This document shows, one piece after another, positions 7,027 to 59,708 of a stretch of 64,000 bases of DNA (positions are counted from its first letter, which is position 1; each line of letters opens with the position of its first letter). The DNA is taken from positions 91,922 through 155,921 of the forward strand of contig CAZJVT010000001.1 in NCBI GenBank assembly GCA_964549935.1. The letters run 5' to 3'. The translations under genes were made by a program, and so were the position numbers. Origin of the DNA: an uncultured Candidatus Saccharibacteria bacterium (GTDB lineage: Bacteria; Patescibacteriota; Minisyncoccia; UBA6257; 1-14-0-10-44-23). The notes below the pieces were generated by a model, which saw only the letters and a program-made list of their open reading frames with translations, did no database searches and was not told the origin of the DNA.

Positions 7027-7096
7027 GCGTACACCTCCTCTTTTTAGAGTAACAGCTTGCGCCCGCGTGTCAAAGGGAGGGGGCGGCCAAGGAAGA

Positions 7097-7116
7097 ATAT
7101 CTCATATATGATATAT
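7097..7116. promoter_or_regulatory. Near-palindromic operator-like site ATATcTCATATATGAtATAT (variant of ATATCATATATGATAT)
   Basis: Read directly; there is one mismatched pair. It is the first of two sites upstream of the HTH-murA gene. Confidence 0.45.
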
Positions 7117-7179
7117 TCCTGGAGGTAGAAAGCAGATTTAGCCCTATTATCAGCAGTTATCCACTTAGAATTACCAGAT

Positions 7180-7199
7180 TTATATCATATATGATATAA
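7180..7199. promoter_or_regulatory. Perfect 20-bp palindrome TTATATCATATATGATATAA (core ATATCATATATGATAT)
   Basis: Read directly. The same 16-bp core recurs at 19244, 37947 and (as a variant) 7097. Confidence 0.5.
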
Positions 7200-19215: not shown

Positions 19216-19242
19216 GATGTGTTCGGCTTCAAAGTAGGGTAC

Positions 19243-19260
19243 TATATCATATATGATATA
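19243..19260. promoter_or_regulatory. Palindrome TATATCATATATGATATA (third copy of the ATATCATATATGATAT site), overlapping the start codon of the next ORF
   Basis: Read directly. Confidence 0.45.
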
Positions 19261-19720
19261 TTCCCAGGCGGTCGTTTTAACCTTGCTTACTTCAGTCGTG
19301 CCCATCGCCGAACGCGGAGCGATTCCGCTCGGTATTACACTCGGGCTTTCGCCGCTTCTTTCCTATGTGCTAGTTACCGTTGGCAATGCGATTGTTATTG
19401 CTACCTTACTGCTTTTTCTCAAGCATTTTTCTGTATGGCTGATGCAGCATTCTGCGTATGCTAAGAAATTCCTAGAGAAGGTTTTTCACCATACTCGCGC
19501 CCATCAAGGTAAAAAATTCGAGCATTTTGGTTTTTGGACACTGGTTATTTTTGTGGCTATTCCTTCGCCGATTAATGGGGTTTGGACAGCCACGGTCTTG
19601 GGGTATCTTATCGGTATGCCGATACAAAAAGCCTTTTTTGCTATACTTACAGGAGGGGCTATCGCGAATGCCTTAGTTCTCGGCGGTACATTAGGCGTAA
19701 TCCATTTTATTCGAGGATAA
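19253..19720 (+). CDS. Small polytopic membrane protein (COG2426-like putative small multidrug export protein)
   Basis: 155 aa with four hydrophobic helices. The start codon lies inside the palindrome, so the exact start is uncertain. Confidence 0.4.
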   Translation: MIYSQAVVLTLLTSVVPIAERGAIPLGITLGLSPLLSYVLVTVGNAIVIATLLLFLKHFSVWLMQHSAYAKKFLEKVFHHTRAHQGKKFEHFGFWTLVIFVAIPSPINGVWTATVLGYLIGMPIQKAFFAILTGGAIANALVLGGTLGVIHFIRG

Positions 19721-37845: not shown

Positions 37846-37944
37846 AACGGGTAACGTGTAACGTCAGACCAGCCGGGCGCGCAGTAGCGCGCCCGGAAAC
37901 ACGGCACAAAAGCCAAAAAGCCTTATAAAATAAGGCCTCTGTGA

Positions 37945-37964
37945 ATATATCATATATGATATAT
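37945..37964. promoter_or_regulatory. Perfect 20-bp palindrome ATATATCATATATGATATAT (fourth copy of the ATATCATATATGATAT site)
   Basis: Read directly. It lies between the convergent GH130 gene and msrA. Confidence 0.45.
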
Positions 37965-37966
37965 TT

Positions 37967-45285: not shown

Positions 45286-45553
45286 TTTGGGGCCCTTTTT
45301 GGACGGTATACTTAAGGAGAACTTCGCGAAAGTTCTTAGTCTCCTGATCAGAGACTTACCGTCGATAATTAACCGCGTTACTCAATACCAGTAGTGCGCG
45401 CAAGACTCACAAATCTAAAATTATGGACACAGTCAAAGCATTAGTAGGAGGCTCGGGTAAGCCGCAGCCGGGACAGCCGATGCCGCCGAGCCAGCCAATG
45501 GGAGGACACTAAGAATCTTACAAAAACCCGCCAAACAGGCGGGTTTTTGGTTG

Positions 45554-45586
45554 CAACGGCTCAACGAGCCGCCGTTGAGCCGTGAG
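45554..45586. repeat. Dispersed palindromic intergenic element, copy 1 (CAACGGCTCAACGAGCCGCCGTTGAGCCGTGAG)
   Basis: Inverted repeat CGGCTCAACG/CGTTGAGCCG. Related copies lie at 49215, 54473 and 59692. Confidence 0.7.
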
Positions 45587-45603
45587 AATATGCGAGAGTA
45601 GTT

Positions 45604-47695: not shown

Positions 47696-47804
47696 TCAGC
47701 AAAAGACCAGATCTTTTTCCAAAACCCGCGTGCAAGCGGGTTTTGGGTTTTTTGTGCCCCGCTTCCGCGCCCCACGGCGCGGAAGCGGGGATATGCACAC
47801 CCGC

Positions 47805-48025: not shown

Positions 48026-48172
48026 TTTTGCTCGGCAAAAATCACCCCGTGAGACGTGAGCACAAGCTCGCTGTCTCTCCGGGGTATTCAGTGCTTATCA
48101 CTAATTAATAACTTCCCGCCTCCGTTCTTACCGATTAACTGATTAACTAATTAACCGATTAACTACCCCCCC

Positions 48173-49214: not shown

Positions 49215-49249
49215 CTCAACGGCTCAACGGGCTACCGTTGAGCCGTTGA
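49215..49249. repeat. Dispersed palindromic intergenic element, copy 2 (CTCAACGGCTCAACGGGCTACCGTTGAGCCGTTGA), at the left border of the R-M island
   Basis: 15-bp perfect inverted repeat with a 4-nt loop. Confidence 0.75.
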
Positions 49250-49292
49250 TTGAAAAAAGGGCCTAAAAGTGAGATGATGGTCATGCACAAAT

Positions 49293-50837
49293 ATGGCTAC
49301 ACTGAATTGGATCGGGAAAGATGCCGTTGTAAATCATGATAAGGAAGTGCCTTTTAAGCTTATTCAAAAGATACCGGGTAATTCCGTTGGTAAAGAGTCT
49401 AAGAATCTGATCATCCACGGGGACAACCTTGAGGCGCTCAAGGCGTTGATGCCTTTTTACAAAGACAAGATTAAGTGCATTTATATTGATCCTCCATACA
49501 ACACCGGGAGCGAGGAATGGGTCTACAACGATAAAGTCAATTCTCCGAAAATCCACGAATGGATAAAAAAAGTTGTAGGACGAGAAGGCGAAGATCTTAC
49601 ACGACACGATAAATGGCTTTGTATGATGTATCCTCGTCTCAAGCTTCTTCGAGATCTTTTGGCTGAAGACGGGGTGATATTCATATCAATTGACGACAAC
49701 GAGCATTCTAACTTGAAGCTCGTAATGGATGAAATTTTCCAAGCAAAGAATTTTGTCACTAATATTGTCTGGCAAAAATCTTATTCGCCAGTCAATCTAC
49801 GTAAGAATTTTTCTCCTAACCATGATTTCATCATAGTTTATGCGAAGAATATTTCTAGCTTAAAACTTAATCAACTGAGTCGGAGCGAAGAAGCGATCCA
49901 AAGATACAAGAATCCTGACAATGACTCAAGGGGGCCTTGGAAATCAACAGATCTTTCTGTGGGTCCAGCAGTAAAAGAAAATATTTATGAAATCCTTACC
50001 CCAAAAGGGCGGAGTATTTTGCCTCCCAAGGGCAGGAGTTGGGTGTTGAATAAAAAGAGATTTCAGGAATTTTTGAACGACAAGCGTATCTGGTTTGGGG
50101 CAAACGGCAATGCCGTTCCTTCAATTAAGAAATTTCTCTCAGAAGTCAAGCCGGGCGTAACTCCAATGACAGTTTGGACTTATCAAGAGGTCGGGCATAA
50201 TCAAGATGCGAAGCGAGAGGTAAAAGAGATCCTTGAGCAGGAGTCGCCGTTTGAGACGCCGAAACCCTTAGGTTTGCTAAGGCGGATTCTTGAGATAGGC
50301 ACATTGCCGAACGATATCATACTTGATTCTTTTGCTGGTTCTGGTACGACCGGCCAAGCAGTTTTGGGGCTCAATAAGGAGGACGGAGGGAATAGGCAGT
50401 TTATCTTGGTGGAGATGGAAGATAGGATTGCAAAAAGTGTCACAGCTGAAAGAATTAAAAGGGCAATTAAAAAGTACGAATACAAAGCAGGTTTTGAGTT
50501 CTGCGAACTCGCTAAGCCTCTATTCGATGCGCAAGGGCAAATCAATGAGAATTGCTCGTATGATGATCTGGCGACCTATATTTATTTCGCCGAAACTCAA
50601 ACAAATACTGAGAAGAAAAATATCAAGAAGCCATTAATCGGTGAAAGCCAGGGGGTTTTCTACTACCTTCTTTTTGCCGAAAAGGGCAAAAATGATCTTA
50701 CTCGCAGTGCGCTTACGAAACTTAAACTCAAGGGGCAGGCTGTCGTATATGCTGATCGCTGCCTTATTGACGAGGACGAACTTAAGGCGAAAGGAGTTAT
50801 CTTCAAGCAAATCCCATACGAGATAAAAGTTTATTAA
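49293..50837 (+). CDS. mod: Type III restriction-modification Mod-like N6-adenine DNA methyltransferase
   Basis: The DPPY catalytic motif (IYIDPPYNTG) precedes the FxGxG SAM-binding motif (FAGSGTTG), the beta-class order typical of Type III Mod. Confidence 0.8.
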   Translation: MATLNWIGKDAVVNHDKEVPFKLIQKIPGNSVGKESKNLIIHGDNLEALKALMPFYKDKIKCIYIDPPYNTGSEEWVYNDKVNSPKIHEWIKKVVGREGEDLTRHDKWLCMMYPRLKLLRDLLAEDGVIFISIDDNEHSNLKLVMDEIFQAKNFVTNIVWQKSYSPVNLRKNFSPNHDFIIVYAKNISSLKLNQLSRSEEAIQRYKNPDNDSRGPWKSTDLSVGPAVKENIYEILTPKGRSILPPKGRSWVLNKKRFQEFLNDKRIWFGANGNAVPSIKKFLSEVKPGVTPMTVWTYQEVGHNQDAKREVKEILEQESPFETPKPLGLLRRILEIGTLPNDIILDSFAGSGTTGQAVLGLNKEDGGNRQFILVEMEDRIAKSVTAERIKRAIKKYEYKAGFEFCELAKPLFDAQGQINENCSYDDLATYIYFAETQTNTEKKNIKKPLIGESQGVFYYLLFAEKGKNDLTRSALTKLKLKGQAVVYADRCLIDEDELKAKGVIFKQIPYEIKVY

Positions 50838-50841
50838 TTTC

Positions 50842-51417
50842 ATGTTGCAAAAATTATATAAAACCACGAATCCAAGCCTTTTATGGGAGATTCGGGAGAA
50901 CACGGCCGGATACGATTATGTTTATTCGGAGCCATTTTGCTCCAACGATTCATGTCGTGTGCCTTTAGATCAAGCTTATCTTGGGACTAATAAGACAGGT
51001 CAATATATAAGCGGTTGGCTTTGTTCAAATTGCAAAAAAGAATATGAGTGTCCCGGCAATGACTATCAATCATTCGTCCAATCAATCCAGAAAAAATACG
51101 AAGGCTTTATTCGGCAGCGTCATGAAATAATTTCATTAGATTTAATTCCTACAAAAGTAGCTGCTGGTGCCGAGGATGAGCATTTTTGGCTGCGGGCGCG
51201 GATATTAGAAAAAAATGGCAAAAGACAAGCCGTCATTTTCATAGGAGAAAAAATAAAAGGAAAGCAGGAAAAAACCGATTATGCCCAGCTATTTCTTGAC
51301 CTAGAAGATGAGCAGGTTCGTTTCGATAAAAATAATAAAAATCCGATGGGGTTACTTTGTAGGTTGACGGCTGAATTCGAAAATTCAAGTACCGCTCTTT
51401 CTAAGAAGGGTAATTAA
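50842..51417 (+). CDS. Hypothetical Cys-rich (zinc-ribbon-like) protein encoded between mod and res
   Basis: CSNDSC...CSNCKKEYEC four-Cys cluster. It has 5-nt gaps to both neighbours and a low GC like the flanking R-M genes. Confidence 0.5.
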   Translation: MLQKLYKTTNPSLLWEIRENTAGYDYVYSEPFCSNDSCRVPLDQAYLGTNKTGQYISGWLCSNCKKEYECPGNDYQSFVQSIQKKYEGFIRQRHEIISLDLIPTKVAAGAEDEHFWLRARILEKNGKRQAVIFIGEKIKGKQEKTDYAQLFLDLEDEQVRFDKNNKNPMGLLCRLTAEFENSSTALSKKGN

Positions 51418-51422
51418 TAGAT

Positions 51423-53699
51423 ATGAAGCTAAAGAACTATCAGCAAAACGCTATAGATACGCTTGACCAGTTTTTGGTGCAGCTTAAGAAATTGAAGCCT
51501 CGCTATGCTTTCACCGAGGTAACCAACGAGCATTACAACCATGAATGGTTTGGCGATGTGCCGTTTGTCTGTATGCAAATGCCGACTGGTGCTGGTAAAA
51601 CCCTTGTGGCTTGTAAATCAGTCGAGCGGATTATGTCCACTATCCTGCAACACAAGATGGATACAGGCATCGTTATTTGGTTCGTGCCTTCAGATTCCAT
51701 TAAGACGCAGACGCTTAAAAAACTCCGAGACTCCAATGATTGGCACTACGAAATGATCAATGAGGCATTCGAGTCTAAGTTTAAGGTATTTTCTAATGAA
51801 GACGCTCTTTCGATGACGCGCGAGGATGTGCGGAACAATCTTTGCATTATAGTTGCTAGTCTTGATGCTTTCCGGAAGGAGGCCAAGATCCAAAACAAGT
51901 ATAAGGTGTACAAAGAGAATGGTGCATTAATGGATCATTTCCAGAATCTTAAGGATGATTCATCGCTCGAAAAAGATTCTGAGGGTACTGTCATCAACTC
52001 TCTCGCGAACGTTATCCGCAAGAACACTCCGCTGATCGTTATCGATGAGGGTCATCACACCCAAACCGAACTATCAGTGCAGTTTTTGGGCGACTTAAAA
52101 CCATCATTCATTATTGAATTCACGGCGACGCCGCGGGAAGGCAGTAATATCCTGGTGCATACGAACGCCTCCGAACTAAAAATCGAAGAGATGGTTAAGA
52201 TCCCGATCGTACTTGAAAGCCGCACGCAGTGGGAGCAGGTTGTCGCAGACGGTATTGCTAAGCGAGCTGAGCTAGAAAAGCGCGCTAGTAAGCTCAAAGG
52301 AGAGCGCATTCGCCCCATCGCATTGCTACAGGCCCAACCGAAGAGCAAGACAAAGGCAACGGTTACCGTGGAGGCGCTCAAGCAGATGCTTCTTGATAAA
52401 AAGATTCCTGAGGAGCAAATCAAGATTAAAACGTCGGAGCTCGACGAACTCGAGGGGATGGATCTCTTCGATAAGAAGTGTGAGGTGCGCTATATTTTGA
52501 CCGTAAATGCCCTTGCTGAGGGCTGGGACTGCTCTTTTGCTTATGTCCTTATCTCCGTTGCCAATCTTGGTGCTAAAGTTGCCGTTGAGCAAATCATTGG
52601 GCGCGTTATCCGTATGCCGAACGCGAAGCGCAAGGCGGACGAAGCTCTGAACCGTAGCTACGTGTTTGCTTCTGCTGCGAATTTTAATGACGCCGCCAGT
52701 AAAGTAATTAAGGGGCTTGAGGATAACGGATATAGCCGCAGTGATTTTATTGGCGCAGACAAAGAACAAGAATATACTGATCCGTTTGAGACAAAGAAGG
52801 CAATCAAGAAGAAACTCGCGGTGCCCCTGATGGCAATTGGCAAAAACAAGCTTTCATTCGAAGATCTTCTCGGAGAGGATTTTGAGCTCGCAAAGCAGAA
52901 TCCCGATTTTGATTTTCGGTTCCATTACGACCTTGACGGCCAAGCTACGATTGACATTAGCGAGGATAATGAATGGCTACGGGACAAGCAGCTCTCGCTC
53001 CCGTATCAATACCTCGAAGGCAATCATTCGGTCGACGAACTCGTGATGTGGCTTGATAAGAAGCTGCGTTTTCCGATGTTGAAACCGGGAGATAAGATTA
53101 CTTTTATTGCCAAAGCTGTCGATAGCCAAATCCAGAAGCGCCAACTTTCACTCCCTAAGCTGTCTGTTAATCGCTATTTATTTGCCGAACGTCTTTCAGA
53201 TGTAATCAATAATTTACTGGAGAGCTTTACTAAGAAAGCATGCGCCGGCCTTCTTGCGGAAAAGAAATTAATCGTCGCGACTTTCGAGGAATTCCCGTCT
53301 ACTATCGCGCTCAAGTCTCCTGTTCCCAAGGTATTCAATAAAAACCTATATGAGCGAGTTGATGCTATCAATGGAGAGGAACGTGGCTTTGTTGAGCGAA
53401 TTGATTTGGGCGCTCTCGAGAACATTGATTTCTGGGTTCGCAACCGTGAAAAAGTTGACCCCTTTTATATCCAAGGATGGAAGCGAGGTAAATTTTACCC
53501 CGATTTTATTGCGGTTACTAACAAAGGAGCCATTATTGCCTTAGAATGGAAAGGCGAAGATAGATTAGACAATCCAGATACGCTTTACAAAACAGAGATT
53601 GCTGAGAATTGGGCCAAGTTGGGTAAAGGCAAGCTTCACTTTTTCTTGGTTCACAGCAAGAACGTTGATGAGGTTCTAGAAAAAGTCAAAAAACTTTAA
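51423..53699 (+). CDS. res: Type III restriction enzyme Res-like subunit (SF2 helicase plus a C-terminal PD-(D/E)xK nuclease)
   Basis: Walker A MPTGAGKT, DEAH-box VIDEGHH and a C-terminal YPDF...ALEWKG nuclease motif. Confidence 0.8.
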   Translation: MKLKNYQQNAIDTLDQFLVQLKKLKPRYAFTEVTNEHYNHEWFGDVPFVCMQMPTGAGKTLVACKSVERIMSTILQHKMDTGIVIWFVPSDSIKTQTLKKLRDSNDWHYEMINEAFESKFKVFSNEDALSMTREDVRNNLCIIVASLDAFRKEAKIQNKYKVYKENGALMDHFQNLKDDSSLEKDSEGTVINSLANVIRKNTPLIVIDEGHHTQTELSVQFLGDLKPSFIIEFTATPREGSNILVHTNASELKIEEMVKIPIVLESRTQWEQVVADGIAKRAELEKRASKLKGERIRPIALLQAQPKSKTKATVTVEALKQMLLDKKIPEEQIKIKTSELDELEGMDLFDKKCEVRYILTVNALAEGWDCSFAYVLISVANLGAKVAVEQIIGRVIRMPNAKRKADEALNRSYVFASAANFNDAASKVIKGLEDNGYSRSDFIGADKEQEYTDPFETKKAIKKKLAVPLMAIGKNKLSFEDLLGEDFELAKQNPDFDFRFHYDLDGQATIDISEDNEWLRDKQLSLPYQYLEGNHSVDELVMWLDKKLRFPMLKPGDKITFIAKAVDSQIQKRQLSLPKLSVNRYLFAERLSDVINNLLESFTKKACAGLLAEKKLIVATFEEFPSTIALKSPVPKVFNKNLYERVDAINGEERGFVERIDLGALENIDFWVRNREKVDPFYIQGWKRGKFYPDFIAVTNKGAIIALEWKGEDRLDNPDTLYKTEIAENWAKLGKGKLHFFLVHSKNVDEVLEKVKKL

Positions 53700-53703
53700 T
53701 TTT

Positions 53704-54168
53704 ATGAATATTGATTTTTCACGGAAATTGATCAAAGGCAGAATCGCTGAAGTTATTTTTGAGCAAATGATCCGGGAAGAGGAGCGATATACTGTGATTC
53801 CATTTGGGTATGAGCACACGATGCCGACTTTATCGCAGTATCGTGCCATAGCTGAAGTTCCTAAAATCATCGACAACATTGCAGATGCGCCGGACTTTGC
53901 TTTGGTGTCTGAGGATAAAACGAAGATCTACTTGGTAGAAGTTAAATATCAAAAGAATTTCGATATAGAAAAAGTGAAAGAATGCGCGGCGAAATTGCGC
54001 GGGCGCTGGGAATATCCGTGGCTTTTTATCGCAACTCCACAGAGATTTTATTGCGGAATGGCGCAGGATATTCTTCGAGAAGGGAGTATCCACGAATTAT
54101 CGGAGAATTGGGTTAATAAAGACCGCCAACTCGCATATTTGAAATTACTAAACGAATTCGAAAAATAA
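53704..54168 (+). CDS. Hypothetical protein with a possible PD-(D/E)xK nuclease-like motif (PDFALV...YLVEVKY)
   Basis: Its motif pattern resembles that of the Res C-terminus. It is 5 nt downstream of res. Confidence 0.4.
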   Translation: MNIDFSRKLIKGRIAEVIFEQMIREEERYTVIPFGYEHTMPTLSQYRAIAEVPKIIDNIADAPDFALVSEDKTKIYLVEVKYQKNFDIEKVKECAAKLRGRWEYPWLFIATPQRFYCGMAQDILREGSIHELSENWVNKDRQLAYLKLLNEFEK

Positions 54169-54173
54169 TCTTC

Positions 54174-54470
54174 ATGACTCCAATTACATACTTCATACTC
54201 GGACTGGTGGTGGGTGGGGTGGTGCTTCTTTTGTGGTTGCGGCGTAGCAAGACCGGGCTCATCGCCCGGCAGCAGGGCGAGAAGGCCGCGCACAAGCAGG
54301 CCATCATCGCTGCCTTTGCCGGAAAGGGCCAACTGACCAACGACGAGGTCCAAAAGCTGCTTGGGGTTAGTGATGCAACCGCGACGAGGTATATGGATGA
54401 GCTCGAAAAGGAGGGCAAAGTGAAGCAGGTAGGCCCAACCGGCCAAAACGTATACTACGAGAGGATTTAA
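54174..54470 (+). CDS. Small membrane-anchored winged-helix DNA-binding protein
   Basis: An N-terminal TM segment (ITYFILGLVVGGVVLLLWL) is followed by an HTH (LTNDEVQKLLGVSDATATRYMDELEKEGKV). Confidence 0.45.
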   Translation: MTPITYFILGLVVGGVVLLLWLRRSKTGLIARQQGEKAAHKQAIIAAFAGKGQLTNDEVQKLLGVSDATATRYMDELEKEGKVKQVGPTGQNVYYERI

Positions 54471-54472
54471 GG

Positions 54473-54510
54473 CCTCAACGGCTCAACGGGACGCCGTTGA
54501 GCCGTTGAAG
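54473..54510. repeat. Dispersed palindromic intergenic element, copy 3 (CTCAACGGCTCAACGGGACGCCGTTGAGCCGTTGAAG), at the right border of the R-M island
   Basis: The same 15-16-bp inverted repeat as copy 2. Confidence 0.75.
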
Positions 54511-55364: not shown

Positions 55365-55413
55365 CCCGGCCCACCATCTCCGCTTATTAATTCTCTACCG
55401 TCCTATTCTCTAA

Positions 55414-55442
55414 TTCGCGCGAATAGGTAAATAGGGTATACT
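55414..55442. promoter_or_regulatory. 29-bp operator-like motif TATTCTCTAATTCGCGCGAATAGGTAAAT, copy 1, containing the perfect palindrome ATTCGCGCGAAT; overlaps the arsR-family promoter
   Basis: Identical copies at 55800-55828 and 56323-56351. A TATACT -10 lies 4 nt downstream. Confidence 0.55.
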
Positions 55443-55481
55443 AGAATTAAAGTTAAAGTGAAAGCAAAAAAAGCGAAAGAT

Positions 55482-55748
55482 ATGGACCTCAAGGATCTCG
55501 AAAAGATACACAAAGCACTTGCAAACCGGCGCCGCCTCGCGATCTTAAAGCATTTGAAGCGGCGCCCGGGCGCGACCGTCGGCAGTTTGGCGGAGGCAAT
55601 TTCGCTTTCATTTAAATCGACCTCCAAGCACATGATTATTCTTTCGGCGGTCGGCCTCGTCGAGCGGGAACAGGTGAATTTGAATATGCGATACCGACTT
55701 GCCGGTACGTTGCCGCCAACCGCAAAAGCCGCGATCGAAATTCTCTAG
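55482..55748 (+). CDS. ArsR/SmtB-family metalloregulatory-type HTH transcriptional regulator
   Basis: LANRRRLAILKHL...ATVGSLAEAISLS.KSTSKHM wHTH pattern. An alternative GTG start is at 55458. Confidence 0.7.
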   Translation: MDLKDLEKIHKALANRRRLAILKHLKRRPGATVGSLAEAISLSFKSTSKHMIILSAVGLVEREQVNLNMRYRLAGTLPPTAKAAIEIL

Positions 55749-55799
55749 GCCTCGAGTTCTCTAGTTTTTCATTTTTTACCAACCCAACTCGCGCTGTCT

Positions 55800-55828
55800 T
55801 ATTCTCTAATTCGCGCGAATAGGTAAAT
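55800..55828. promoter_or_regulatory. 29-bp operator-like motif, copy 2
   Basis: Identical to copy 1; upstream of the secreted-protein gene. Confidence 0.55.
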
Positions 55829-56322: not shown

Positions 56323-56351
56323 TGAGTTTTTTCTATTCTCTAATTCGCGCG
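56323..56351. promoter_or_regulatory. 29-bp operator-like motif, copy 3
   Basis: Identical to copy 1; upstream of the cupin gene. Confidence 0.55.
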
Positions 56352-56495
56352 AATAGGTAAATGGACTTGGGGGCCAACTCCTGCCTTCCGGTCTTTGGTT
56401 TTCTTTTCCTTGTTATCCTTTCCATTCTCATACGGCTTATGGGTATGGGGATGCTACTTAGTACCAAATATGGGTTTAAGGGCGAGATCGAAAAG

Positions 56496-58499: not shown

Positions 58500-59666
58500 A
58501 TGAAAATTAAATTTTTGAACGTGGCGACGCTGGTTGTATTAGTCATCGCAATTGCCGGGGCCTGGTGGTATGGCACGCGGCACAACGCGACCTGGACGAG
58601 CATCACGACCTTTGAGCAGTGTGCACAGCTTTACCCAGTGATGGAGAGCTACCCGGAGCAGTGTGCCACGCCGGATGGGCGTAGTTTTGTGCGCGACATT
58701 AGTAATGACATGCAAAACTTGATTCAAGTTAGTTATCCGCAGCCAAATGCGCCGGTCGCTAGTCCGCTGACTGTCACCGGGCAGGCGCGCGGCAACTTTT
58801 ACTTCGAAGCCAGCTTTCCCGTAAAACTCTTGGATGCAAACGGCGCCGTTTTAGCGCAGGTGCCGGCGCAGGCCCAGGGGGAGTGGATGACGGAGGAGTT
58901 TGTCCCATTTAAAGCCTCGCTCAACTTCAAAACGCCAACGACGAAGACCGGTGTGTTAGTTTTACAAAACGACAATCCGTCCGGCGATCCGGCTAAGAGT
59001 AAGGAGCTCCGAATTCCGGTGCAGTTTGGTGAGTCGGGAGTTGTGAAGTTTGGCCAGAAATTTACTCTAACGACGGGTGATACTGTGTTTTTGCCGGATG
59101 ACTTAGAGGTGAAATTAGCTGAAATTACAGACTCACGCTGCAAGCCTGGTGTCCAGTGTATTTGGGCGGGAGAATTATCGCCGCTTTTATGGGTTACGCG
59201 AAACGGAGCGACGCCATCGCCGCTGAAAGATGTTCAGCTTGGCACGCTTGATCATAAGGTTGTTTATTACGATACCTATTCGTTTACATTAGTTGAAGCG
59301 ACTGAGACGAGCGCGACTATCATTGCAGACGTTGCGGCCCAGGGGAAAGGCGGGAGTGGGGTTGTCGGATATGTTCATGTCGGGCCGACCTGCCCGGTTG
59401 GAAAAAATCCTCCGGATCCGAAATGTGCCGACAAGCCGGCGGCGAATATTGAGGTTGTGTTTACGAAAGTTGGAGGGGCAGTTGCAGCTCGGGTTGATAG
59501 TACAGAGCAGGGGCACATTCGCGTTGCCCTGCCGGCAGGCTCTTATGTCGTGACCGCAGTTTCGCCAGCTAATAACCAGCTGCCGCGGTGCGAGACAAAA
59601 ACGATTGCGCTCAAAACAGGTGAGCTGCAGGCTCTTGATATCAGCTGCGACAGCGGAATTCGGTAA
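58500..59666 (+). CDS. Secreted hypothetical protein (N-terminal anchor, beta-rich)
   Basis: ORF only. Confidence 0.45.
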   Translation: MKIKFLNVATLVVLVIAIAGAWWYGTRHNATWTSITTFEQCAQLYPVMESYPEQCATPDGRSFVRDISNDMQNLIQVSYPQPNAPVASPLTVTGQARGNFYFEASFPVKLLDANGAVLAQVPAQAQGEWMTEEFVPFKASLNFKTPTTKTGVLVLQNDNPSGDPAKSKELRIPVQFGESGVVKFGQKFTLTTGDTVFLPDDLEVKLAEITDSRCKPGVQCIWAGELSPLLWVTRNGATPSPLKDVQLGTLDHKVVYYDTYSFTLVEATETSATIIADVAAQGKGGSGVVGYVHVGPTCPVGKNPPDPKCADKPAANIEVVFTKVGGAVAARVDSTEQGHIRVALPAGSYVVTAVSPANNQLPRCETKTIALKTGELQALDISCDSGIR

Positions 59667-59691
59667 AATTTCTCAAGGCGGAGCGACAGCT

Positions 59692-59708
59692 CGTTGAGCC
59701 GTGAGAAT
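59692..59708. repeat. Partial copy (3' half) of the dispersed palindromic element (CGTTGAGCCGTGAGAAT)
   Basis: Matches the 3' half of copy 1 at 45570-45589. Confidence 0.5.

What the first reader, a model, noticed from the sequence alone, without database searches (positions are those of the whole stretch)
49215..54510. Five-gene Type III R-M island with three unassigned components, bracketed exactly by two copies of a palindromic element
Five genes run co-directionally with 5-nt gaps. They are mod (DPPY then FxGxG), a 191-aa zinc-ribbon protein inserted between mod and res, res (SF2 helicase plus a PD-(D/E)xK C-terminus), a 154-aa protein with its own PD-(D/E)xK-like PDF...EVK motif, and a membrane-anchored wHTH protein. 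Canonical Type III systems are mod-res only, so the other three genes are candidate regulators, specificity factors or an unrelated co-transcribed defense module. The block is more AT-rich than its neighbours. The 35-bp inverted-repeat element sits immediately outside the first and last gene, at 49215-49249 and 54473-54510. This looks like a horizontally acquired cassette and is the best candidate in the window for a novel defense module.
Basis: partly seen in the sequence, partly recalled or inferred. Interest (0 to 1): 0.7.

Follow-up and report, generated by a model that had tools for sequence, protein, structure and literature searches.

The report
Type III restriction cassette with embedded zinc-ribbon gene
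A horizontally acquired three-gene restriction-modification cassette (methylase, unknown zinc-ribbon protein, restriction enzyme) sits in a defence-gene hotspot of an uncultured Patescibacteria genome. The zinc-ribbon protein belongs to an undescribed family that often lies next to restriction enzymes of different types, whereas the flanking palindromes and the last gene are native to the host.

Summary
The five co-directional genes, their 4-5 nt gaps, the motifs, the low G+C and the two palindromes are all real. They do not form one five-gene cassette. The conserved mobile unit is mod-ORF2-res. Nucleotide similarity to a second copy on a serine-recombinase/primase element (L006) runs from the mod start codon to about 45 nt before the res stop.

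ORF5 (membrane-anchored wHTH) has host-like GC3 (0.70). In a related genome (L082/L083) it keeps the same hairpin at its 3' end, with compensatory base changes, but a different defence island lies upstream. The right-hand palindrome is therefore native. Degenerate copies also lie at 45552 and 59690.

ORF4 is a confidently modelled PD-(D/E)XK nuclease from a highly conserved Patescibacteria family with variable neighbours. It follows a Type III Res only in the window and in L029.

ORF2 is the interesting part. It is an unannotated zinc-ribbon family of about 200 clusters. In 9 of 19 other loci it lies within two genes of a restriction or defence gene: Type III, MmeI-like, Type ISP-like, Type I S, TdeIII, SIR2, or a helicase-nuclease. 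One relative is fused to HEPN_AbiU2. Its mechanism is unknown; a regulator or partner of the restriction nuclease is my best guess.

The parts
49216..49249 (.). Palindromic hairpin copy 1. It has a 15-bp perfect stem and a 4-nt loop, and starts 2 nt after the metK stop codon. It belongs to a dispersed intergenic hairpin family of this genome.
   Evidence: other copies
49250..49278 (+). Promoter-like site (TTGAAA-17-GATGAT with TG) just upstream of mod. This is a consensus match only.
49293..50837 (+). mod: Type III beta-class N6/N4 DNA methyltransferase, with DPPY before FxGxG.
   Evidence: It is 60% identical to the L006 Mod.
50842..51417 (+). ORF2: 191-aa protein with an N-terminal 4-Cys zinc ribbon and a conserved C-terminal beta-rich domain (...GEKIKGKQ..DY.QLFLDLEDEQVRFDKNNKNP...). 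It belongs to an unannotated family that is often adjacent to restriction or defence genes.
51423..53699 (+). res: Type III restriction subunit with an SF2 helicase-like ATPase and a C-terminal PD-(D/E)xK motif (YPDF...LEWKG).
   Evidence: It is 61% identical to the L006 Res.
53704..54168 (+). ORF4: stand-alone PD-(D/E)XK nuclease. It is foreign in composition but is not part of the conserved cassette. Its family is highly conserved in Patescibacteria and has variable neighbours.
54174..54470 (+). ORF5: native membrane-anchored winged-helix protein that marks the right edge of the variable region. It is not part of the R-M system.
54475..54508 (.). Palindromic hairpin copy 2, starting 4 nt after the ORF5 stop. 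The orthologous position in L082/L083 has a conserved hairpin with compensatory changes, so this copy is native and probably a terminator or structured 3' element.
45552..45590 (.). Third, shorter copy of the same hairpin (GGCTCAACG-AGCCGC-CGTTGAGCC). It lies in an unrelated intergenic region, next to a canonical terminator.
59690..59708 (.). Half copy of the hairpin (CGTTGAGCCGTGAGAAT, shared with the 45552 copy). It is intergenic, after the gene that ends at 59666.

Best explanation
The low-GC block is foreign DNA lodged between metK and a native wHTH gene (ORF5). Related genomes carry different defence genes next to these same anchor genes.

Its core is a three-gene mobile Type III R-M cassette, mod-ORF2-res. 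From established knowledge of Type III systems, Mod should methylate one strand of a short asymmetric site. Res (ATPase plus PD-ExK nuclease), bound to Mod, should cut DNA that carries unmethylated sites.

ORF2 is co-transcribed and probably translationally coupled between the two genes. I infer that it is a non-enzymatic zinc-ribbon binding protein that partners or regulates the nuclease-bearing component, for example by timing or restraining restriction when the cassette enters a new cell. This inference rests on its position next to nuclease genes in several unrelated restriction systems.

ORF4 is a separate, independently distributed PD-(D/E)XK nuclease gene that joined the island.

The two palindromes are copies of a native intergenic hairpin family that sits just after stop codons. 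They are terminator-like or REP-like elements, not ends of the island.

Shown: gene identities, the extent of the cassette, the native status of ORF5 and hairpin 2, and the neighbourhoods of the ORF2 and ORF4 families. Inferred: enzymatic activity, co-transcription, and any function of ORF2 or ORF4.
For: - Type III identity.
- Cassette extent: blastn similarity between L006 and the window starts at the mod start codon (49293) and ends at 53655 inside res. After res, L006 carries a T5orf172 gene instead of ORF4/ORF5, and a serine recombinase and Prim-Pol lie upstream.
- Conservation: ORF2 is 69% identical between the two cassettes, against 60-61% for Mod and Res.
- ORF2 next to other restriction or defence genes. 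It overlaps a divergent 877-aa Res by 4 nt (L004). It overlaps an MmeI-like 1278-aa enzyme by 4 nt (L071). It follows a Type ISP-like enzyme next to metK (L074). It also neighbours a Type I S subunit (L063), TdeIII (L066), SIR2_2 with SMODS (L064), a DUF4011-AAA_11/12-MTES_1575 helicase-nuclease (L065) and DUF3800 (L069).
- One relative is fused to HEPN_AbiU2.
- Cultivated relatives of this Res have no annotated gene between mod and res.
- ORF5 and hairpin 2 are native: GC3 is 0.70. L083 is syntenic. The hairpin is orthologous, with 3 compensated pairs. A different island, with an ISP-like enzyme and Mrr, lies upstream of the ORF5 ortholog.
Against: - In 10 of 19 other ORF2 loci I found no recognisable defence gene within two genes. 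A dedicated restriction partner is therefore not obligatory.
- The partner enzymes are unrelated to each other. This fits an independent island-resident gene, or a DNA-binding regulator, better than a specific protein subunit.
- The ORF2 model is poor (pLDDT 65) and has no structural or profile match beyond a generic zinc ribbon. No mechanism is shown.
- The near-versus-far enrichment test is circular, because the seed proteins were taken from the neighbours.
- No empty site (metK directly followed by ORF5) was found.
- The two flanking hairpins have identical stems, which could still reflect a recombination event linked to the island.
Confidence: 0.6

Rival explanations
1. ORF2 has no functional link to the Type III enzyme. 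It is a self-contained gene, either a single-gene defence or sensor module or a selfish hitchhiker. It settles in defence islands and happened to insert between mod and res in one cassette lineage.
For: About half of the family's loci show no adjacent defence gene. The partners belong to unrelated systems. Almost all of about 200 cluster representatives are stand-alone proteins of 170-200 aa. One is fused to a HEPN_AbiU2 effector, which suggests the domain can serve as its own sensor.
Against: The mod-ORF2-res order and the 3-5 nt spacing are kept across cassettes that have diverged to 60% identity. ORF2 is the best conserved of the three genes. In L004 and L071 it overlaps restriction genes by 4 nt. 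An insertion between mod and res that served no purpose would be expected to be lost.
Confidence: 0.3
2. All five genes form one acquired defence cassette, and its ends are the two palindromes (att-like or terminal repeats). ORF4 and ORF5 are accessory nuclease and regulator of the R-M system.
For: The two copies have identical stems (34 of 36 positions including the preceding CC; the two differences lie in the loop). They lie just outside the first and last gene. All five genes are co-directional with 4-5 nt gaps. ORF4 also follows a distant Type III Res in L029.
Against: ORF5 has host-like GC3 of 0.70. The ORF5 ortholog and its hairpin are conserved in L082/L083 with a different island upstream. 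The sister cassette L006 lacks ORF4, ORF5 and the hairpin. Further hairpin copies lie at 45552 and 59690. The block encodes no recombinase. None of the 43 ORF4 loci has an ORF5 or ORF2 homolog within 8 kb.
Confidence: 0.05
3. ORF4 is an auxiliary or back-up nuclease that works with the upstream defence enzyme. It would act as a terminal effector gene shared by many systems, rather than as an independent gene.
For: In 23 of 37 loci a same-strand gene ends within 150 nt upstream. Upstream genes include Type III Res (L029), AAA_13 (L030), AAA_15 (L057), an SMC-like ATPase (L042) and Eco57I-like (L044). In the window the gap to res is 4 nt.
Against: Immediate neighbours also include gyrB, RNB, KsgA, Mur ligase and a P-type ATPase. 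The window Res already has its own PD-ExK motif. Only 7 of 40 loci have a recognised defence gene within two genes.
Confidence: 0.15

Closest known systems
Type III restriction-modification systems (EcoP15I/EcoPI type; PADLOC MTase_III PDLC03644 and REase_III PDLC03650)
   Same: Mod is a beta-class N6/N4 methyltransferase and matches MTase_III over its full length. Res has an SF2 ATPase followed by a PD-(D/E)xK motif. mod lies upstream of res on the same strand.
   Different: A 191-aa zinc-ribbon gene sits between mod and res. Three cultivated relatives of this Res (33-36% identity) have mod next to res with no annotated gene between them. Res is too distant from solved Res structures to match by sequence.
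Controller (C) proteins of R-M systems
   Same: Like a C protein, ORF2 is a small gene placed immediately upstream of, and tightly coupled to, the restriction gene on a mobile R-M cassette (the window and L004). This is the arrangement by which C proteins delay restriction. That comparison rests on established knowledge.
   Different: ORF2 has no helix-turn-helix. It has a 4-Cys zinc ribbon plus an unknown beta-rich domain. In other loci it lies downstream of the restriction gene, or alone. No operator was identified.
PD-(D/E)XK nuclease superfamily: Pfam PDDEXK_11, Hjc resolvases, homing endonuclease I-Ssp6803I, cap-snatching PA endonuclease
   Different: The window protein reaches no curated family threshold. 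There is no added DNA-recognition domain, and the substrate is unknown.
REP-like or terminator-like intergenic palindromes
   Same: The hairpins are perfect 15-bp stems placed 2-4 nt after stop codons. Several copies lie in one 64-kb window. Pairing is kept by compensatory changes in an ortholog.
   Different: The + strand has no clear T-tract (one search finds a terminator-like match only on the - strand of copy 1). Genome-wide copy number is unknown. No REP-associated transposase was seen.

Membership tests
Type III R-M | Mod is an N6/N4 methyltransferase with the beta-class motif order (DPPY before FxGxG). | tested here: met
   IDPPYNTG at about residue 66 and FAGSGTTG at about residue 347. 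PF01555 E=1.8e-42. MTase_III PDLC03644 matches residues 1-513 of 514, E=1.6e-188.
Type III R-M | Res has an N-terminal SF2 helicase-like ATPase. | tested here: met
   PF04851 ResIII E=1.5e-16. REase_III PDLC03650 E=1.7e-85. Motifs MPTGAGKT, DEGH and QIIGRVIR are present.
Type III R-M | Res has a C-terminal PD-(D/E)xK endonuclease domain. | tested here: inconclusive
   The motif YPDFIAV...ALEWKG is present and aligns with FYPDF...IEPKG of the distant L029 Res. No Pfam endonuclease model reached threshold, and no structure was predicted.
Type III R-M | Two-gene mod-res operon. | tested here: not met
   ORF2 (50842-51417) lies between mod and res, here and in L006-L008. Plasmid relatives have no annotated gene between them.
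Type III R-M | ATP-dependent cleavage that requires unmethylated, inversely oriented sites, with hemimethylation by Mod. | not testable with these tools
   This needs biochemistry or methylome data.
Controller (C) protein | Xre-type helix-turn-helix DNA-binding domain. | tested here: not met
   No HTH family hit in the window protein or in 87 relatives; only zinc-ribbon models matched.
Controller (C) protein | C-box operator palindromes upstream of the C/R operon. | not tested
   Operators conserved between the window and L006 were not searched for.
PD-(D/E)XK nuclease superfamily (ORF4) | Restriction-endonuclease-like alpha/beta fold. | tested here: met
PD-(D/E)XK nuclease superfamily (ORF4) | Conserved catalytic residues: an acidic residue, then D, then E-x-K. 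| tested here: met
   E37, D64, E79 and K81 are invariant in 32 sequences.
Genomic island bounded by att or terminal repeats | The repeats arise from or mark the insertion, and are absent as a pair from related genomes that lack this insert. | tested here: not met
   The right copy is conserved at the ORF5 3' end in L082/L083, where a different island lies upstream. Extra copies lie at 45552 and 59690.
Genomic island bounded by att or terminal repeats | An integrase or recombinase lies inside or beside the island. | tested here: not met
   None among the five genes or the adjacent ORFs. The sister cassette in L006 does have a serine recombinase.
Genomic island bounded by att or terminal repeats | The compositional anomaly runs from repeat to repeat. 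| tested here: not met
   ORF5 has GC3 0.70, like metK at 0.72. Only 49293-54168 is low in G+C.

The most novel reading that the evidence does not exclude
The ORF2 family is a new, Patescibacteria-wide accessory factor of restriction nucleases. It would be a zinc-ribbon protein that plugs into unrelated restriction systems (Types I, II, IIG/ISP, III, SIR2 and helicase-nuclease modules). It could act as a sensor or switch that licenses or restrains the nuclease, making it a controller analogue without an HTH, and a third component of this Type III cassette.
Probability: 0.3. Interest if true: 0.7.

Novelty: new variant of a known kind. Interest (0 to 1): 0.45.

Why it matters
Type III R-M systems are regarded as strict two-gene systems. 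A conserved third gene between mod and res, from a family that also sits beside other restriction types, would point to an undescribed layer of control or sensing in restriction systems.

It would also give a first functional handle on two widespread "hypothetical" protein families of Patescibacteria, a group whose defences are poorly known.

The negative results matter too. Flanking palindromes and tight co-directional spacing suggested a five-gene cassette that comparison with related genomes does not support.

Tried and rejected
- Neighbourhood test by tblastn with the window's own Mod and Res. It suggested that ORF4 and most ORF2 homologs are never near R-M genes. This was a false negative. 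Pfam and phmmer annotation of the neighbours found divergent R-M and defence genes.
- Profile of 87 ORF2 relatives against PDB sequences and Pfam: only generic zinc-finger or zinc-ribbon matches.
- PADLOC, NCBIfam and PHROGs: no hits for ORF2. For ORF4, PADLOC and PHROGs gave no hits and NCBIfam gave only one hit far below its cutoff (HinfI family, E=0.035).
- tblastn of ORF2 and ORF4 against the plasmid and phage collections: no match. Viral contig scans: no relatives.
- DNA-mimic anti-restriction idea for ORF2: rejected, since its pI is 7.5.
- L029's 164-aa gene between mod and res as an ORF2 analogue: rejected. It is a membrane protein with no similarity to ORF2 (hhalign probability 0.3%).
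- Fisher test of near versus far defence genes. It is reported only as description, because the seeds came from the neighbours and the test is circular.
- Empty-site search through exact metK look-up: it returned only the same genome.
- Literature search: nothing on these families.
Full report
**What is there**

The region holds five + strand ORFs separated by 4-5 nt.
- 49293-50837, 514 aa. This is a Type III Mod: PF01555, a full-length match to PADLOC MTase_III PDLC03644 (E=1.6e-188), and DPPY before FxGxG.
- 50842-51417, 191 aa (ORF2). It matches no Pfam, NCBIfam, PADLOC or PHROGs family.
- 51423-53699, 758 aa. This is a Type III Res: ResIII/DEAD, REase_III (E=1.7e-85), and a C-terminal YPDF...LEWKG motif.
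- 53704-54168, 154 aa (ORF4).
- 54174-54470, 98 aa (ORF5), with a hydrophobic N-terminus and HTH_24.

The palindrome TCAACGGCTCAACGG-N4-CCGTTGAGCCGTTGA lies at 49216-49249, 2 nt after the metK stop, and at 54475-54508, 4 nt after the ORF5 stop. Shuffled sequence gave no matches, and both copies fold strongly. The block is the lowest-G+C stretch of the window, 0.437 against 0.511.

**The unit is three genes, not five**

ORF2 has few close relatives. The closest, at 69% identity, lies in L006-L008 between a 60%-identical Mod and a 61%-identical Res. That copy sits on an element with a serine recombinase and a Prim-Pol/AAA_25 primase.

Nucleotide similarity between L006 and the window begins at the mod start codon (49293) and ends at 53655, inside res. 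After res, L006 has a T5orf172 gene rather than ORF4 and ORF5. So mod-ORF2-res is the conserved mobile unit.

In three plasmid-borne relatives of this Res (33-36% identity), no gene is annotated between mod and res. The interstitial gene is therefore a departure from the usual layout.

**ORF5 and the right-hand palindrome are native**

GC3 is 0.72 for metK, 0.45 for Mod, 0.35 for ORF2, 0.51 for Res and 0.44 for ORF4, but 0.70 for ORF5.

ORF5 belongs to a large family of roughly 95-110-aa winged-helix proteins found in Patescibacteria. Its closest relative with context (L082/L083) comes from a related genome. The ORF5 region is 72.7% identical at the nucleotide level. A type II secretion ATPase gene is 77.6% identical at the protein level and lies in the same order downstream.

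In that genome the ORF5 ortholog is followed, 4 nt after its stop codon, by an orthologous hairpin (AACGCCTCAACGG-CGTT-CCGTTGAGGCGTT). Three of its base pairs have changed on both sides and still pair.

Upstream of that ortholog lies a different set of genes: a T5orf172-ResIII-Eco57I enzyme of 1329 aa, three unknown genes, an Mrr-type enzyme and a 113-aa gene. Similarity to the window starts at the ORF5 start codon.

ORF5 with its hairpin is therefore a conserved anchor at the edge of a variable defence region.

The hairpin also occurs in a shorter form at 45558-45581 and as a half copy near 59690, both intergenic. It is a dispersed native element, not an island end. The block encodes no recombinase.

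In a more distant genome (L074), a Type ISP-like enzyme and an ORF2 relative follow metK directly. In L023, a serine-recombinase/Rep element carrying an ORF4 relative lies about 2 kb from metK. This suggests that the region next to metK often receives such genes.

**ORF4**

The family has more than 285 clusters at 60-87% identity. That is about as conserved as metK between the same lineages.

In 43 representative genomes its neighbours vary.
- It follows a distant Type III Res in L029, where an unrelated 164-aa membrane-protein gene lies between mod and res.
- It follows an HsdM/S fusion plus AAA_13, an ISP-like enzyme plus AAA_15, a PLD-SNF2 protein plus an Eco57I-like enzyme, Schlafen-type and DUF4011 helicases, and an SMC-like ATPase.
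- It also sits next to gyrB, RNB, KsgA, Mur ligase and a P-type ATPase.
- Seven loci carry a serine recombinase nearby, and four carry a rolling-circle Rep.
- In 23 of 37 loci a same-strand gene ends within 150 nt upstream.

ORF4 is thus an independently distributed nuclease gene. It is foreign here by composition, and it is not a specific Type III component.

**ORF2**

A profile search of 1.84 billion representatives found 202 relatives. Nearly all are stand-alone proteins of 170-200 aa. Conserved positions are W15, the zinc-ribbon cysteines C33, C61 and C64, and D100, G126, D162, P168 and F179. There is no obvious catalytic constellation.

The model is good only for the N-terminal zinc-ribbon domain, and no fold or profile match is informative.

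The neighbourhoods are the useful evidence.
- Type III cassettes: the window and L006-L008.
- A divergent 877-aa Res, overlapped by 4 nt, in a cluster with an N6/N4 methylase, a PD-Lambda-5_A-like gene and a Dam methylase (L004).
- An MmeI-like 1278-aa enzyme, overlapped by 4 nt (L071).
- A Type ISP-like enzyme next to metK (L074).
- A Type I S subunit (L063), TdeIII (L066), SIR2_2 with SMODS nearby (L064), a DUF4011-AAA_11/12-MTES_1575 helicase-nuclease (L065) and DUF3800 (L069).
- One relative is fused to HEPN_AbiU2, scoring 26.7 bits against a cutoff of 26.8.
- Five loci have a 63-aa CxxC...CxxC gene just upstream.

Nine of 19 non-redundant loci have a defence-type gene within two genes. 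That count is descriptive, and the accompanying test is circular. The other loci show nothing recognisable.

**Mechanism**

The R-M part should work like any Type III system. This follows from established knowledge of the family and was not tested here.

For ORF2 my best guess, at about 0.35, is a non-enzymatic binding protein co-expressed with the nuclease-bearing gene that regulates or partners it. The main rival, at about 0.3, is an independent island-resident gene.

For ORF4 I favour an independent nuclease of unknown target.

**Verdict**

This is an ordinary Type III R-M system with an unusual, conserved third gene from an undescribed family associated with restriction systems. The five-gene, palindrome-bounded cassette is not supported.

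Noticed in passing
window 55400-55432, 55796-55828, 56332-56365: Three copies of another palindromic element (TATTCTCTAATTCGCGCGAATAGGTAAAT) lie in successive intergenic gaps around the 96-aa HTH gene (55458-55748) and its neighbours. They may be operators or promoters of that regulator.
   Followed up: no
window 48134-48165: Four tandem 8-nt units (ATTAACTG/ATTAACTA/ATTAACCG/ATTAACTA) end 8 nt before the metK start codon. They may be a regulatory site.
   Followed up: no
window 7095-7118, 7180-7199, 19238-19265, 37944-37965: A recurrent AT-rich palindrome (ATATATGATATAT core) occurs at four places in the window.
   Followed up: no
L061 367-561; L063 1586-1777; L064 7786-7977; L066 900-1091; also L065 (the copy listed): A 63-aa CxxC...CxxC zinc-ribbon gene lies 11-45 nt upstream of the ORF2 homolog in five loci. 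It sits between ORF2 and a Type I S subunit, SIR2 or TdeIII gene, so it may be a partner of the ORF2 family.
   Followed up: partly
P0200 (380 aa; no locus): A relative of ORF2 (residues 5-162) is fused to a C-terminal HEPN_AbiU2-like domain (E=4.4e-6, just under the Pfam cutoff). This hints that the ORF2 domain can be coupled to an abortive-infection effector.
   Followed up: partly
L029 3064-8468: A second, very divergent Type III-like operon has a small gene between mod and res (164 aa, membrane protein, unrelated to ORF2). An ORF4 homolog follows 41 nt after res, and DUF3800 lies downstream.
   Followed up: partly
L004 3411-11179: A defence cluster lies on a putative plasmid-like element with a rolling-circle Rep and ParB. 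It contains an N6/N4 methylase, a PD-Lambda-5_A-like 460-aa gene, a Dam methylase, a 141-aa gene, an ORF2 homolog and an 877-aa Res with RE_endonuc.
   Followed up: partly
L065 3537-10625: ORF2 and ORF4 homologs flank the same 1639-aa DUF4011-AAA_11/12-MTES_1575 helicase-nuclease gene. Apart from the window, this is the only locus where both families occur together.
   Followed up: no
window 47718-47790: Two strong hairpins lie back to back downstream of the 322-aa gene: a canonical terminator at 47718-47747, and a 15-bp perfect GC-rich stem at 47757-47790.
   Followed up: no
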